A DNA stretch of 64,000 nt from an uncultured bacterium (GCA_963749445.1 CAVVMJ010000010.1:43913-107912); one strand, 5' to 3'. Numbered from the stretch's first letter, positions 19,529-40,253 are shown. Numbers and translations: made by a program. Notes: generated from the sequence alone by a model not told the origin.

Positions 19529-20110
19529 CTAGAACAATGCCGCCTGATGCTTCACTCCCACCCGCGGCGCGGCGTCCGCGATTTTCAGCGGTATTTCTTT
19601 GGTCTTAAAAAAATCTTTATACAGCAGCTTTTGGTTTTTTAACGCGTAATCGTAAATTTGTTTGGTGATTTTTACGTCGTCGGTGCAATATTTTTTAAGC
19701 AAATCCATTCTTCCGTTTTTGTAATACAAAAGCGCCTCCAGCCCGCTGCCGGACTTGCCGCTGCCCAGCGTACCCTGGGCCACCAGTTCCAATTTTATCC
19801 GGTGGTGCAAAACCTTTTCAATTTCCGCGAGCAAATCCAAATACGGAACCTCGTCTATATTAAAATTTAAATAAGGTTTTAAAACCTCAAAATCAAAATC
19901 TTTTATGTTATAACCGATAATCTGGTCTGCGGTCTGTAAAATCGGCGCCAGCCTATTAAGCTCGTGCTCTTCGTAAGCTGTATATTTGTCGGTGCTGTAA
20001 TCGTAAATTACGCAAACACTCACCTTTAACAAATGGTTCTTCCCCCGCCCCCCTACATCCTGGAAAGATTTCTGGGTTTCAAGATCTAATACAATCTTTT
20101 TTAAAAACAT
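19529..20110 (-). CDS. RNase H-like 3'-5' exonuclease (YprB/PolB-exo-like)
   Basis: DEDD-type motifs LDLETQ, YNIKDFDFEVL and CTDDVKITKQIY. Confidence 0.5.
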   Translation of the reverse strand: MFLKKIVLDLETQKSFQDVGGRGKNHLLKVSVCVIYDYSTDKYTAYEEHELNRLAPILQTADQIIGYNIKDFDFEVLKPYLNFNIDEVPYLDLLAEIEKVLHHRIKLELVAQGTLGSGKSGSGLEALLYYKNGRMDLLKKYCTDDVKITKQIYDYALKNQKLLYKDFFKTKEIPLKIADAAPRVGVKHQAALF

Positions 20111-20951
20111 TTTGGTTTTATTGATCAGTTATATATAAGCAATGTAGCGTGCCGATTCATCGGCGTCCGAAAACCGCCCATAAATGGGCACGCTACACTT
20201 ATTCATTATATAAAACATTTGTCAAAAAGACAAAAAAAGCTCTCTGCCAGATCAGAGAGCAACGGTACCCGGAAGCCCGCGTGCGGCCCCGGGATTTTTC
20301 TACGATACGCAACCGTTCAAAAACAAACGGCTGGTTCCCGCGGCAGATGCTGGCAACCGCGAAAAATTCATAATTGCGGCCCGGAGCTTTCGCCCCGGAC
20401 TGTGCCCCATGTGGGGCTCCTTCTCCTTGGTATTGTATACCCGCTTGCCAGTTCAGGCGGGGTGATGCAAAAGGGCAGAAGCCCCAACTACGCCCAAAAT
20501 ATCACCGATATTACTGGTTGGGCCTGCCTGATCAAACGCTCCCGGAGCTAAATGGAGTTAAAAAATATCAGGGCAGAAGCGCCTGCAGTCCTCGGCCGTC
20601 AACCGAGTCCTTTGGCGATTTTTTGCCCCTATTTCGTCCAAACCATCAGGGGCCAATGGATTGCACGTTGGGCTATCGGCTCAGCAGGTTGACGGACATC
20701 GTCGCACTCATAGACGAAACTCCCTTCTTCATGTGTTCCAATTGTTTTTCCGCAGGCCTTTTTCCTGCGGCGATTGGTTTAACCAGATATTACTCTCTCT
20801 CTCTGTTTTTGTCAACATTTTTGCCATTTTTACAATTTTGTTGTAAAATACTTTTATCATTGATTTTTAACAGCCCTACCGACTGTTTATCGGACGAGGG
20901 CTATCCTCAGAGGCCGATAAATCGGCAAACTACACTGGGGTGAAAGCAAAT

Positions 20952-22815
20952 ATGCAACGAACACTATCTTTGGAAACGCCCGAAAAAATCGGGCAAGACG
21001 TCTCGGTTGAGGGCTGGGTAAATTCCCGGCGCGACCACGGGGGCGTTATTTTTATTGATTTGCGCGACCACACTGGTTTGGTCCAGCTCGCGATTCATCC
21101 TGATGAAAAAGAGGCTTTCGCGGCCGCTGATAAATGCCGCGACGAGTTTGTAATAAAAGCCGAGGGCAAAGTTATTGAACGGTCGCCCGAAACCAAAAAC
21201 GAAAACCTGCCCACAGGCGGCGTGGAAATTTTAACTTCATCTATCGTCATCCTTAATACTTCCAAACCCCTGCCGTTTCAGGTGGCGCACGGCCATGGTG
21301 AAGAACAGGAAATTAACGAGGATTTGCGATTAAAATATCGGTTCCTTGATCTGCGCCGCGAAAAAATGCAAGCAATGCTCGTCAAACGGCACAAAATGAT
21401 TAAGTTTATCCGCGACTGGATGGACGAACATCAATTTATAGAAATCACCACGCCGATTCTGACTTCCAGCAGCCCCGAAGGCGCGCGCGACTTTTTAGTG
21501 CCGTCGCGCCTGCACCCCGGAAAATTTTACGCTCTGCCGCAATCGCCTCAGCAATACAAACAGCTGCTGATGACCGGCGGCGTGCCGCGCTATTTCCAAA
21601 TCGCGCCATGTATGCGAGACGAAGACCCGCGTGCGGACAGAAGCCCGGGCGAACACTACCAGCTGGACTTGGAAATCGGTTTTGCCCAGGAACCGGAAGA
21701 TGTGTTTTCGGTGATGGAGCCGTTTTTTGTGGAGTTGGCCGAAAAATTCGCGGACAAAAAAATCTGGAAAAAACCTTTCCCGCGCATTTCCTACGAAGAC
21801 GCCATGAATTTATACGGCTCGGATAAACCGGATTTGCGTTTTGGAATGGCAATGGTGGATTTAACGGAAGATTTACGCAATACAAAATTTAGCGTTTTCG
21901 GCAACGCCATAAAAAACGGCGGGGTGGTCAAGGCCATTTGTTGCGACGACGGCGCAAAATTAACCCGCTCGCAAATTGACGAACTTACGGAAATGGTCAA
22001 AAAAGAAGGCGCCGGCGGGCTGGCGTATATTGTTGTTGATAGCAAATCCGATAGTGGCGTAGAGGCACGCCGCGGCGTGCCTGATCAAGACGGCATGCCT
22101 CGGCATGCCGCTACAGGGACAGAAAACCTCCGCTCCCCCATCCTTAAATTTTTATCATCTGACGAAATTTCCGCCATCCTCACCAAAACCAAGGCCGAGC
22201 CCGGTGACATTATTTTCTTTGGCGCGGACCAGTTGCCGATTGTGAACAAAGTCCTCGGGAAGCTCCGCAGTAAACTTGGCGACGTCTTCGGGTTAAAAGA
22301 TCGAAAACCTAATAGCCTGGGCCTGGATTTACAACTTCCCGATGTATGAATACAATGAGCAGGAAAAGCGCCTGGACTTCGGCCACAATCCGTTTTCCAT
22401 GCCCAAAGGCGGGCTGGAAGCATTAAACACGCAAGATCCGCTCAAAATCATTGCCCAGCAATATGACATTGTGGCCAACGGCCTGGAAATTTGCTCCGGC
22501 GCCATCCGCAATTACCATCCCGAAACTATGTATAAGGCTTTTGAAATTGTTGGTTACGACAAAAAAACTGTGGACGAAAAATTCGGCGGCATGATCCGCG
22601 CCTTTGAATTTGGCGCGCCGCCGCACGGCGGCATGGCCCCGGGCATTGATAGGATAATGATGCTTTTGGAAAATGAACCCAACATCCGCGAAATTATCGC
22701 CTTCCCCAAAAACGGCTCAGCCGAAGACGTCATGATGGGCGCCCCCGGCACCGTGGAAGAAAAACAGTTAAAAGAATTGCATATAAAACTGGACCTTCCA
22801 AAACCTAAAAAATAG
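20952..22815 (+). CDS. aspS: aspartyl-tRNA synthetase, with an apparent frameshift in an A4 run near 22295-22298
   Basis: N-terminal anticodon-binding OB fold, class II motifs and motif 3 [19 protein letters not shown]. ORFs 20940..22349 and 22342..22815 are in different frames. The upstream frame reads ...GLKD and the downstream frame ...[16 protein letters not shown], matching the E. coli sequence around WAPLWVIDFPMFE. Confidence 0.85.
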
Positions 22816-25711: not shown

Positions 25712-25815
25712 TGTTGATGGGCATCTTCTCGCTAACAATGCCGCTTGCGATAGTTATCAGGCTGTCGATAAACAATCGCCGACATTAAAACAATCACAAA
25801 GATGCCCATCAAGCA
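25712..25815. repeat. MITE-like repeat family F3, copy 2
   Basis: TTGATGGGCATCTTCTCGCTAACA ... AAAGATGCCCATCAA. Confidence 0.8.
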
Positions 25816-39757: not shown

Positions 39758-39900
39758 AATTTATTAGTAGTTAGCAGATAGTATTTAGCAGTTAGGGCTA
39801 GATCGACCTCGTAGCCGATAAATATCCTTTTAATAAAAAGACTCGGGCTTACCCGAGTGAATAAGTGTAGTGTGCACATTTATGGGCAACTAATGATGGC
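39758..39900 (-). promoter_or_regulatory. rplJ 5' leader (candidate L10-leader autoregulatory structure)
   Basis: A 140-nt untranslated region with hairpin potential (GGGCTTACCCGAG..) upstream of rplJ. Call is by position only. Confidence 0.3.
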
Positions 39901-39911
39901 CGATAAATCGG

Positions 39912-40040
39912 CGCACTACATTTTCCTCGGTGGGTTTACCCGCCTAAATTTTGCGCTTGTCTTTAGGGTTTGATAAATAACGAAATAATTTTGTTATCGA
40001 TCAAATTTCCAACTAATTGGGCAAAATTTTGGCGGGTGAA
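39912..40040. repeat. MITE-like repeat family F4, second element
   Basis: TTTACCCGCCTAAATTTTGCGC ... AATTGGGCAAAATTTTGGCGGGTGAA flanking an 85-nt core. Confidence 0.7.
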
Positions 40041-40253
40041 TTAAGGCCTTTCGGCCGCCAACTGTCTTTGGATATTTTCCGCCGGTCCTCGACTCTGAGG
40101 GACGAGCATCGCTCGGACTCGAATGAGAGACGGATCCGCCTTTGGCGGAAATTAAACCTATTATAGCAAACCCTTTAAAATCCGTCAACCCGCATCCGTA
40201 GATCTGTGTCCCGACATTTTAAGGCTAAAAAATCACAGCTGTGATAATTCAGC

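What the first reader, a model, noticed from the sequence alone, without database searches (positions are those of the whole stretch)
20111..20939. 830-bp ORF-free, GC-rich region between the divergent exonuclease and aspS genes
In a genome where most spacers are under 150 bp, this stretch has no credible ORF in any frame. It is GC-rich with many short complementary segments. Examples are the 10-bp stem GTAGCGTGCC...GGCACGCTAC at 20133-20185, CCCGGAGCT repeated at 20383 and 20540, and GGGCAGAAGC repeated at 20471 and 20569. It ends with the palindromic GGCCGATAAATCGGC motif 30 nt before aspS. Candidates are a structured ncRNA, a degraded gene or a long regulatory leader. I looked for RNase P P4 (GGAAAGTCCGG), tmRNA 5' (GGGG..GGATTCGACG) and T-box (GGGTGGNACCGCG) signatures and found no convincing match.
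Basis: seen in the sequence. Interest (0 to 1): 0.5.

Follow-up and report, generated by a model that had tools for sequence, protein, structure and literature searches.

The report
Hidden RNA gene beside aspS operator
The 830-base gene-free stretch in this Candidatus Doudnabacteria genome holds three things: an unannotated gene for a folded RNA about 550 nt long, a hairpin in the aspS messenger that copies the anticodon arm of tRNA-Asn/Asp, and a copy of a repeated palindrome.

Summary
Window 20111-20951 is the largest ORF-free spacer in the window, is more GC-rich than other spacers, and has no conserved or Pfam-matching ORF. It is a composite of three parts.

(1) Plus strand: the aspS promoter and a roughly 95-nt leader. 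Its conserved hairpin (20873-20901) has a 7-nt loop YUGUYUA carrying GUC (Asp) or GUU (Asn). Both stems covary across about 50 Doudnabacteria leaders. I read it as an AspRS autoregulatory operator of the E. coli thrS type.

(2) Minus strand: a self-contained unit with a consensus promoter (20815-20787) and an intrinsic terminator (20260-20232). It would give a structured RNA of about 550 nt. The RNA has a 5' hairpin, a Shine-Dalgarno/AUG hairpin that can be read as a 12-codon micro-ORF, covarying central helices and a 3' GCAAUYAU module. Homologues sit at the same place in some relatives. Others equally close have a different sequence there or nothing. No Rfam, tRNA or tmRNA match was found. 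Its function is unknown; my best guess is a lineage-specific accessory riboregulator.

(3) The exo promoter plus a palindromic element (20122-20215). A second copy lies at 39847-39938 and a partial copy in the aspS leader.

Transcription and protein binding are inferred, not shown.

The parts
20122..20215 (-). Copy 1 of a repeated palindromic (REP/MITE-like) element in the exo 5' leader. It contains the GTAGCGTGCC / GGCACGCTAC stem and two mini-hairpins (GCCCAUUUAUGGGC and GCCGAUGAAUCGGC).
   Evidence: Inverted repeat I2. MFE -47 kcal/mol long hairpin. nhmmer finds a second full copy at window 39847-39938, a partial copy at 20898-20937, and copies in L055/L056/L061, L086 and L072.
20205..20233 (-). 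exo promoter (P2): TTGTCT, 17 nt, TATAAT. It overlaps the T-run of the upstream terminator.
   Evidence: Consensus scan. TTTTGTCTTTTTG...TATAAT is conserved in unit-bearing loci. It resembles the single exo promoter TTTTTGCCAAAT-N-TATAAT of loci that lack the unit.
20232..20260 (-). Intrinsic terminator of the minus-strand RNA: GCUCUCUGAUCUGGCAGAGAGC followed by U7.
   Evidence: Terminator scan: 8 pairs, 5 G-C, then TTTTTTT. Equivalent terminators with compensatory stem changes stand at the same place in 10 loci.
20261..20436 (-). 3' module of the RNA. It has hairpin CCGGGGC-GAAA-GCUCCGG (20381-20398), the motif GCCGCAAUUAU (20370-20380), a hairpin with CCAGCAU in its loop, and two further hairpins. 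This segment is absent from L058, L055 and L111.
   Evidence: Alignment gap. The hairpin plus GCAAUYAU motif is shared with L057, L051, L018, L016, L015, L009, L013, L024, L011, L112 and L001. Exact CCGGGCCGCAATTAT occurs once in the window.
20437..20672 (-). Central structured domain. It includes the invariant blocks GGUUGACGGCCG..GACUGCAGGC and GGCAGGCCCAACCAGUAAUAUCGGUGAUAUUUUGGGC. It ends in the stem CCCGCCUGAACUGGCAAGCGGG (20440-20461), which is the terminator in L058, L055, L111 and L001.
   Evidence: WIN is 75% identical to L058 and 67% to L055. Alignment; nhmmer hits to L111 and L051. Consensus helices are 89.9% paired against 41-54% for slid controls, with 10 pairs changed on both sides.
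20673..20726 (-). SD-AUG hairpin, or micro-ORF. SD AGGGAG is at 20720-20725, the AUG at 20709-20711 and the stop at 20673-20675. The product would be MSATMSVNLLSR.
   Evidence: Eight distinct loci carry AAGGAGG, 7-12 nt, then UAUGA..(A/G)UUCC, with 9-13 codons. The SD pairs with the UCC of codon 6, and the upper stem covaries.
20727..20780 (-). 5' end of the RNA. It has a conserved AACCAAUC box and hairpin CCGCAGG-AAAAAGG-CCUGCGG (20750-20770). In L111, L051, L109, L055 and L018 a three-way junction replaces the hairpin.
20787..20815 (-). Promoter of the RNA unit: TTGACA, 17 nt (GA-repeat spacer), TAATAT. The TSS would be near 20780.
   Evidence: Consensus scan, 10 of 12 matches. TTGACAAA..GAGAGAG..TAGTAT is conserved in L018, L109, L057, L001, L051, L033, L058, L055 and L111.
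20821..20849 (+). aspS promoter: TTGCCA, 17 nt, TAAAAT.
   Evidence: TTTGGCAAAA..TTTGGTAAAAT is conserved across loci.
20873..20901 (+). Anticodon-arm mimic in the aspS 5' UTR. Outer stem GCCCU/AGGGC, inner stem CCGA/UCGG, 7-nt loop CUGUUUA (GUU).
   Evidence: Found in 56 of 100 spacers, with loop YUGUYUA. The inner stem is 100% paired with covariation; 0 of 500 shuffles reach the percent-paired, double-change-cell or covariation scores. The outer stem is perfectly paired in 42 of 50 distinct leaders, with many pair types. There is one exact hit in the window.
20898..20937 (+). Partial copy of the palindromic element inside the aspS leader. It includes hairpin GGCCGAUAAAUCGGC (20912-20926).
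   Evidence: Inverted repeat I1 with 20140-20179, 75% complementary. nhmmer E = 5.5e-5. The same arrangement occurs in L112/L113.

Best explanation
The stretch is three stacked features, not one.

(a) Plus strand. The aspS promoter drives a ~95-nt leader. Its conserved hairpin copies a tRNA anticodon arm: an A-U pair closes a 7-nt loop Y-U-G-U-Y-U-A, which carries GUC (Asp) or GUU (Asn). Most likely AspRS binds this hairpin when uncharged tRNA is scarce. That would block ribosome entry at the nearby start, as E. coli ThrRS does on thrS.

(b) Minus strand. A self-contained gene has a near-consensus sigma-70 promoter, a start near 20780 and a Rho-independent terminator at 20260-20232. It would make a multi-helix RNA of about 550 nt. 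Its parts, in order:
- a 5' hairpin;
- a hairpin that locks a perfect Shine-Dalgarno sequence against codon 6 of a 12-codon micro-ORF, with the AUG in the enclosed part;
- a central domain of covarying helices;
- a former terminator stem;
- a 3' module with the motif GCAAUYAU.
I take it to be a lineage-specific, dispensable riboregulator that ends at its own terminator. The ribosome-binding-site hairpin would be its sensing or effector part. Its target is unknown.

(c) The exo promoter, followed by a copy of a repeated palindromic element.

What is shown: sequence conservation, covariation, synteny, and presence or absence across relatives. What is inferred: transcription, translation of the micro-ORF, AspRS binding, and any regulatory output.
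For: Organism and synteny: the exo protein matches Candidatus Doudnabacteria. aspS-exo-lgt is syntenic in about 100 loci.

Promoter and terminator on the minus strand. Both are conserved in position in relatives.

Selection on the RNA: the WIN-L058 RNA core is 75% identical, against 48-57% at four-fold degenerate sites of exo and aspS. Blocks of 10-20 bases are invariant across WIN, L058 and L055.

Structure:
- 62 consensus pairs are 89.9% paired, against 41-54% when slid.
- 10 pairs are changed on both sides (0 of 500 shuffles reach this).
- Many G-U pairs fit only the minus strand.
- The 5' three-way junction has UUCG and GNRA loops and compensatory changes in P1-P3.
- The SD/UCC hairpin is recovered in most of the eight members.

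Not coding. Not a known RNA.

Accessory: relatives with exo 91-93% identical have either no unit (L059, 142-nt spacer) or the same frame with a different body (L001, L057).

aspS operator. The thrS and yeast AspRS precedents are described in PMC7373986.

Palindrome family.
Against: - There are no expression data. The promoter and terminator are consensus matches only.
- Only four full-length and about four partial homologues of the window's RNA exist. The consensus structure was derived from the same alignment it is tested on.
- L055 is no more conserved overall than synonymous sites (67% against 65%).
- Strong SD sequences are rare in this genome (2 of 63 long ORFs). The AAGGAGG may therefore be a structural element rather than a ribosome site.
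- The micro-ORF is missing in L001, L057 and L112.
- No target was found. No significant pairing with the aspS leader was found.
- For the operator: position 37 of the loop is U, where tRNAs carry a purine. The tRNA-Asp and tRNA-Asn genes of this organism could not be retrieved.
- In the window the operator lies 50 nt from the start codon, because a partial palindrome copy intervenes.
Confidence: 0.5

Rival explanations
1. The minus-strand RNA is not autonomous. It is a long 5' leader and attenuator of the exo-lgt-DUF5656-protease operon. Translation of, or stalling on, the Asn/Ser/Thr-rich micro-ORF would remodel the downstream helices. That would decide whether RNA polymerase stops at the terminator or reads into exo.
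For: The RNA has the same orientation as exo, and its terminator lies directly upstream of exo. The order promoter, structured 5' domain, SD, short ORF, helices, terminator is the classic attenuator layout. The unit's promoter sits where the single exo promoter sits in loci that lack the unit. Asn makes up 17 of the 91 residues of the eight peptides (my own count).
Against: exo keeps its own conserved -35/-10 downstream of the terminator. Close relatives express exo without the unit (L059). No conserved antiterminator alternative was found. The Asn codons are not conserved in position, and L058 has none. The micro-ORF is absent in L001, L057 and L112. The distance from the ORF stop to the terminator is 220-440 nt.
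Confidence: 0.25
2. The unit is a selfish or mobile cassette lodged in a recombination hot spot. It could be the mRNA of a type I toxin-antitoxin-like system or another addiction module.
For: Presence is patchy among near relatives, and the body is replaced inside a constant promoter/terminator frame. The spacer ranges from 74 to over 1300 bp and holds different small genes in different genomes, including small hydrophobic peptides. Duplicated exo 5' coding fragments and a palindromic repeat lie alongside. The start site is sequestered, as in hok-type mRNAs.
Against: The peptide is 9-13 aa and hydrophilic. No antisense promoter or partner gene was seen. No copy occurs elsewhere in the window or outside this spacer in about 117 loci. 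There was no match in viral contigs.
Confidence: 0.08
3. The central segment is decaying or neutral DNA: a remnant of a lost gene or of past insertions. Chance promoter-like and terminator-like sites would then explain the apparent gene.
For: Equally distant relatives (L001, L057) cannot be aligned in the body. L055 is near neutral overall. Other genomes carry real small genes at the same site.
Against: There are runs of 10-20 invariant bases while synonymous sites are near saturation. Compensatory changes and UUCG/GNRA loops are present. The promoter and terminator are conserved in place across all variants. No frame is conserved and there is no Pfam hit.
Confidence: 0.07
4. It is a divergent copy of a known RNA that the models missed: RNase P, tmRNA, 6S, SRP, a T-box, a riboswitch or a group I intron.
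For: The only support is a weak match to the c-di-GMP-I-GGC aptamer at 20338-20415 (12.8 bits against a gathering score of 59, E = 7.8). [quoted passage not shown]
Against: No gathering-level Rfam hit was found in the window or in 17 loci. Nothing consistent appeared at E up to 10 in 8 loci. ARAGORN found nothing here. The element is absent from close relatives, so it is not a housekeeping RNA. It has its own promoter and terminator and is not inside a host gene.
Confidence: 0.02

Closest known systems
E. coli thrS operator (ThrRS translational autoregulation by anticodon-arm mimicry); also the yeast AspRS and HisRS mRNA mimics
   Same: A hairpin in the synthetase's own 5' UTR, close to the start codon. 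It has a 7-nt loop that carries the cognate anticodon after a U33-like U. The stems are conserved by covariation (precedent in PMC7373986, and PMC6542539).
   Different: A different synthetase (AspRS) and a different phylum (Patescibacteria). Most leaders have one mimic arm rather than two. The loop carries either GUC or GUU, which would fit a non-discriminating AspRS. Position 37 is U. Binding and repression are untested.
Lineage-specific structured RNAs of unknown function found by comparative genomics (the class that includes raiA, ROOL, OLE and many 'motif' RNAs in Rfam)
   Same: An intergenic, GC-enriched, multi-helix RNA with covariation, tetraloops, and its own promoter and terminator. 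Phylogenetic range is narrow and there is no protein product of note.
   Different: It matches none of those families. It is tied to one syntenic site. It is modular and replaced between close relatives. It carries an SD-AUG hairpin or micro-ORF.
Leader-peptide transcription attenuators and dual-function sRNAs (for example trpL-type leaders, SgrS/SgrT, RNAIII/hld)
   Same: A short ORF with a strong SD lies inside a structured RNA that ends in an intrinsic terminator upstream of co-oriented genes.
   Different: No conserved run of regulatory codons and no defined antiterminator were found. The downstream gene has its own promoter. The ORF is missing in some family members.
REP / MITE-like palindromic intergenic repeats
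   Same: An imperfect palindrome of 70-95 nt, found in several intergenic copies per genome and in relatives.
   Different: Only 2 full copies and 1 partial copy were seen in 64 kb. No transposase link was found. The 9-bp flanking direct repeat (AAATGTTTT) is a weak sign of target duplication.

Membership tests
Any Rfam 15 family | Score at or above the family's gathering threshold | tested here: not met
   The window has only 3 tRNAs elsewhere. The region at E up to 10 gives only spurious miRNA hits on the palindrome and a 12.8-bit c-di-GMP-I-GGC hit. 17 loci at gathering give 0 hits. 8 loci at E up to 10 give nothing consistent.
tmRNA / tRNA | tRNA-like acceptor and T arm; tag reading frame | tested here: not met
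   ARAGORN finds none in the region or in 60 loci, apart from one unrelated tRNA-Glu.
T-box leader | Lies upstream of, and on the same strand as, an aaRS gene; specifier loop; conserved T-box sequence in an antiterminator | tested here: not met
   The large RNA is on the strand opposite to aspS. The aspS leader is only ~95 nt. There is no RF00230 hit.
thrS-type synthetase operator (anticodon-arm mimic) | Hairpin in the synthetase's own 5' UTR next to the ribosome-binding region | tested here: met
   In the short-form leaders the 3' strand of the outer stem lies 8-13 nt from the AUG. In the window it lies 50 nt away.
thrS-type synthetase operator (anticodon-arm mimic) | 7-nt loop with the cognate anticodon at positions 34-36 after U33 | tested here: met
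   The loop is YUGUYUA. GUC occurs in 26 of the 56 spacers that carry the element and GUU in 26. L018 has CUGUUAA. Position 37 is U rather than a purine.
thrS-type synthetase operator (anticodon-arm mimic) | Structure maintained by covariation | tested here: met
   Inner stem: 100% paired, 3 of 4 pairs changed on both sides, 0 of 500 shuffles reach the covariation score. Outer stem: perfect in 42 of 50 leaders, with at least 8 pair combinations.
thrS-type synthetase operator (anticodon-arm mimic) | The synthetase binds the operator and represses its own translation | not testable with these tools
   This needs AspRS-RNA binding and toeprint or reporter assays.
Leader-peptide attenuator | Short translated ORF rich in the sensed amino acid | tested here: inconclusive
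   An SD plus AUG plus 9-13 codons occurs in 8 loci. Asn is 17 of 91 residues by my own count, but not at fixed positions, and L058 has none. The synonymous-looking changes also fit hairpin covariation.
Leader-peptide attenuator | Mutually exclusive terminator and antiterminator; the regulated gene depends on read-through | tested here: not met
   No conserved alternative pairing was found. exo has its own conserved promoter after the terminator.
Type I toxin-antitoxin | Small hydrophobic membrane toxin of roughly 18-60 aa, plus an antisense RNA | tested here: not met
   The peptide is 9-13 aa and polar. The antisense partner was not specifically tested.
Group I intron | P3-P9 core; inserted in a host gene | tested here: not met
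   There is no RF00028 hit. There are no flanking exons, and the unit has its own promoter and terminator.
REP/MITE-like repeat (for 20122-20215) | Palindromic intergenic element present in multiple copies | tested here: met
   There are 2 full copies and 1 partial copy in the window, plus copies in 5 related loci.

The most novel reading that the evidence does not exclude
The two divergent features form one tRNA-Asn/Asp-sensing control node in a minimal-genome CPR bacterium. The first is the AspRS operator, whose loop toggles between the Asp and Asn anticodons across species. The second is the adjacent structured RNA with its Asn-rich micro-ORF behind a locked ribosome-binding site. The RNA would be a new class of translation-coupled sensor, not an ordinary sRNA.
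Probability: 0.08. Interest if true: 0.8.

Novelty: new member of a known kind. Interest (0 to 1): 0.55.

Why it matters
Candidate Phyla Radiation bacteria have few recognisable regulators, and almost nothing is known about their RNA-based control.

If the aspS hairpin is a real AspRS operator, it would extend thrS-style anticodon mimicry to a second bacterial synthetase and to an uncultivated phylum. I know of no earlier such case, and a search of the paper library found none. The GUC/GUU alternation would be a natural read-out of non-discriminating anticodon recognition.

The minus-strand RNA is a concrete, testable candidate for a new structured RNA family. It has defined ends, domains and homologues.

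The locus also shows how one intergenic site can act as a swap point for small RNA and peptide cassettes in reduced genomes.

For annotation, it warns that the 189-aa open frame here is spurious.

Tried and rejected
- Rfam at gathering and E-value thresholds, on the window and 25 loci: nothing usable.
- ARAGORN for tRNA and tmRNA.
- Degraded gene: Pfam on 8 ORFs was negative and the frames are not conserved.
- Direct blastn of the region to the 54 genome loci gave only promoter and leader pieces. Closer relatives had to be fetched one by one through exo homologues.
- Exact look-ups of the window's own exo protein failed twice.
- A viral-contig scan for the most conserved block gave 0 hits.
- Trans-pairing of the RNA with the aspS leader: duplex energies were no better than shuffles. 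An earlier run timed out.
- GCAAUYAU pairing with the micro-ORF start (AUGAnUGC): it is perfect in L018 and has one or more mismatches in WIN, L051, L024 and L109. There is no compensatory change, so I kept it only as a possibility (my own comparison of the sequences).
- A tRNA gene split by a group I intron, prompted by PMC13011429: rejected. There are no tRNA exons, the loop is continuous and there is no intron-model hit.
- A MAFFT/RNAalifold consensus for the 3' module and for the 5' domain across all variants failed, because the sequences are too divergent.
- tRNA-Asp and tRNA-Asn of the same organisms could not be obtained for a direct comparison with the mimic.

Full report
**Source and observation.** The exonuclease-like protein (PF13482) next to the region has more than 1000 homologues. 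The named ones are Candidatus Doudnabacteria, in the CPR/Patescibacteria. The order aspS, then exo and lgt on the other strand, is conserved in about 100 loci fetched from genomes and metagenomes.

In the window, exo starts at 20110 on the minus strand. aspS starts at ATG 20952 (MQRTLS, as in homologues), not at the GTG at 20940. The 841 bp between them is the largest ORF-free gap in the window. The median gap is 79 bp and the next largest is 496 bp. GC is 0.52-0.59 over 20250-20700, against 0.48 for the window and 0.33-0.46 for the other long gaps.

The open frames in the region have no Pfam match. They are not preserved in homologous loci, where the same DNA blocks fall in different frames.

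**How the spacer behaves in relatives.** The aspS-exo spacer ranges from 74 bp to over 1300 bp across Doudnabacteria, and most long versions lack long ORFs. Plain blastn of the window's spacer against 54 genome loci matched only its ends.

I then fetched closer relatives through exo homologues. L058 (exo 92% identical) aligns at 75% over about 450 nt. L055 and L061 (96%) align at 67%. L111 (91%) aligns along the whole core. L051, L018 and L109 align in part.

L001, L057 and L112 are just as close (exo 91-93%). They keep the same promoter and terminator frame but have a different body. L059 (91%) has only a 142-nt spacer.

Four-fold degenerate sites of exo and aspS are only 48-57% identical between the window and L058. 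The 75% identity of the RNA core, with runs of 10-20 invariant bases, therefore indicates constraint. L055 is near neutral overall but keeps the same invariant blocks.

**The minus-strand unit.** The consensus scan finds TTGACA, 17 nt, TAATAT at 20815-20787. It also finds an intrinsic terminator at 20260-20239 followed by seven T, both on the minus strand. The promoter has an odd GA-repeat spacer and a following AACCAAUC box. It is conserved in nine other loci. Terminators with compensatory stem changes occupy the same place in ten loci.

Between the promoter and terminator the window RNA (about 550 nt) contains:
- a 5' hairpin (20750-20770);
- AGGGAG, 8 nt, then AUG, opening a 12-codon frame (MSATMSVNLLSR, 20711-20673);
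- a central domain with invariant blocks;
- the stem CCCGCCUGAACUGGCAAGCGGG (20461-20440);
- a further ~200 nt (20436-20238) that L058, L055 and L111 lack.

In L058, L055, L111 and L001 that stem is followed directly by a U-run and is the terminator. The window has lost the U-run and continues to the second terminator.

The extra segment is not random. It carries a hairpin followed by GCCGCAAUUAU and a hairpin with CCAGCAU in its loop. This pattern recurs in L001, L112, L024, L011, L016, L015, L057, L018, L051 and others. Across ten of them, only GG..GCAAUYAU and the terminator can be aligned. The family is therefore modular.

**Evidence for RNA structure and strand.** On the four full-length members, RNAalifold predicts 62 pairs. 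Counted formally, 89.9% of cells are paired, against 41-54% when the partners are slid. Ten pairs change on both sides, which 0 of 500 shuffles reach. Several helices use G-U pairs that would be C-A on the other strand. One caveat applies: the structure was derived from the same small alignment.

In L111, L051, L109, L055 and L018 the 5' hairpin is replaced by a three-way junction. Its three helices all show compensatory changes, and its hairpins end in UUCG or GNRA-type loops. Such loops are a hallmark of functional RNA.

The 'micro-ORF' region folds in most members so that GGAGG pairs with the UCC of codon 6. UAUGA is invariant within the enclosed part, and the upper stem covaries with the spacer between the SD and the AUG. 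That covariation gives a second explanation for the apparently synonymous codon changes (Leu UUG/CUG/CUC; Thr ACG/ACU/ACC).

Strong SD sequences are rare in this genome, at 2 of 63 long ORFs. The element may therefore be a locked ribosome-binding site, a decoy, or a purely structural hairpin. I cannot tell which.

**What the unit is not.**
- No Rfam family matches at the gathering score in the window or in 17 loci.
- Nothing consistent appears at E up to 10 in the region or in 8 loci.
- There is no tRNA or tmRNA.
- No copy occurs elsewhere in the window or outside this spacer in the loci held.
- The most conserved block is absent from viral contigs.
- Pairing with the aspS leader is no better than with shuffles.
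- It is dispensable in close relatives, so it is not a housekeeping RNA.

**Most likely role of the unit.** Loci without the unit have a single palindromic -35 (TTTTTGCCAAAT) that serves both divergent promoters. Unit-bearing loci have one promoter copy at each end of the unit. The unit thus looks like a cassette set into the exo promoter region.

I favour an autonomous accessory riboregulator, because it has a strong terminator and exo keeps its own promoter. The main rival is a translation-coupled leader or attenuator for the exo-lgt operon. Selfish-cassette and neutral-DNA readings are less likely, and a missed known family is unlikely.

**The aspS leader.** Aligning the aspS-proximal ends of the spacers shows a conserved promoter (TTGGCA..TGGTAAAAT). 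After it comes a hairpin centred on CCGAYUGUYUAUCGG, found in 56 of 100 spacers.

- The four-pair inner stem is paired in every sequence and covaries (CCGA/UCGG, GCGA/UCGC, CCCA/UGGG, CGGA/UCCG, CUGA/UCAG, CCAA/UUGG).
- Its loop-closing A-U pair is invariant. 0 of 500 shuffles reach the covariation score.
- A five-pair outer stem is perfectly complementary in 42 of 50 distinct leaders, with many pair types.
- In the short form its 3' strand lies 8-13 nt from the AUG. In other leaders a second hairpin is nested inside it.
- The loop is Y-U-G-U-Y-U-A. That is GUC (the Asp anticodon) in 26 of the 56 and GUU (the Asn anticodon) in 26, each after a U33-like U. L018 reads CUGUUAA.

From my own knowledge, the E. 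coli tRNA-Asn anticodon arm is CGGA-CUGUUAA-UCCG, a close match in form.

This is the logic of the E. coli thrS operator, and a similar model exists for yeast AspRS (PMC7373986; also PMC6542539). A search of the paper library found no bacterial aspS case. The GUC/GUU alternation would suit a non-discriminating AspRS, but I could not check for asnS or gatCAB.

There are weak points. Position 37 is U. The organism's own tRNAs were not available. In the window a partial palindrome copy separates the hairpin from the start codon by 50 nt. Binding is untested.

**The exo-proximal part.** It is a repeated element:
- a second full copy lies at 39847-39938, in the window's next-largest spacer;
- a partial copy (20898-20937) supplies the GGCCGAUAAAUCGGC hairpin before aspS;
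- further copies occur in L055, L056, L061, L086 and L072.

It follows the exo promoter (20233-20205).

**Verdict.** It contains a candidate new structured RNA gene of unknown function, a well-supported candidate synthetase operator, and a palindromic repeat. All functional statements rest on comparative sequence evidence only.

Noticed in passing
window 22303-22349: aspS is split into two frames: ORF 20940-22349 and ORF 22342-22815. The second frame is already open at 22303 ([17 protein letters not shown]...), so a 1-nt shift lies near the A-run GAAAAC at 22303-22308. Relatives have one ORF of 593-629 aa. This could be an assembly error or a real frameshift.
   Followed up: partly
window 39847-39938 (inside the 496-bp spacer 39758-40253): A second full copy of the palindromic element, containing the same GGCCGATAAATCGGC hairpin as the aspS leader. 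The rest of this large spacer was not examined.
   Followed up: partly
L055 708-923; also the L004, L010, L020, L070, L109, L114 and L002 spacers: One or two extra copies of the first ~20 codons of exo (MLKKIVLDLETHP.FAKATAD...) lie upstream of the real exo start. They look like leftovers of repeated insertion or recombination at the 5' end of exo.
   Followed up: no
L074, L096, L036, L037, L032, L069, L023, L043, L013, L075, L083 spacers: In other Doudnabacteria the same aspS-exo spacer holds different small genes. Examples are small membrane proteins, MADFRK-type 15-28 aa hydrophobic peptides, a 236-aa secreted protein, and 10-aa ORFs (MKQLSAVIWV / MKKAQGVIWI). The site is a swap point for small cassettes.
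   Followed up: no
window 25765-25779 (minus strand): GCGATTGTTTATCGA, a 2-mismatch look-alike of the aspS anticodon-arm motif, lies in the spacer between a ScpB-like gene and a ROK-kinase-like gene (both labels are my guesses from the ORF translations). It could be chance: 6 of 100 shuffles gave two or more matches.
   Followed up: partly
whole window: Strong Shine-Dalgarno sequences precede only 2 of 63 long ORFs, and any 4-mer core precedes only 11 of 63. The perfect AAGGAGG before the micro-ORF is therefore unusual for this genome.
   Followed up: partly
aspS leaders of L006, L070, L020, L012, L008, L018, L057, L077: Between the anticodon-arm mimic and the AUG these leaders carry a further conserved element with repeated GATCAGCG and GCTATCCGCG motifs. 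The window lacks it.
   Followed up: no
L029, L031, L036, L041, L042, L043 (exo 75% identical or less): The more distant clade lacks the anticodon-arm mimic. It has instead a long hairpin CCCUUACAAAC...GUUUGUAAGGG in the aspS leader.
   Followed up: no
window 20793-20809 and homologous promoters: The 17-nt spacer of the RNA unit's promoter is a conserved GA repeat (AAAACAGAGAGAGAGAG), which reads as a CT run on the aspS side. Its significance is unknown.
   Followed up: no
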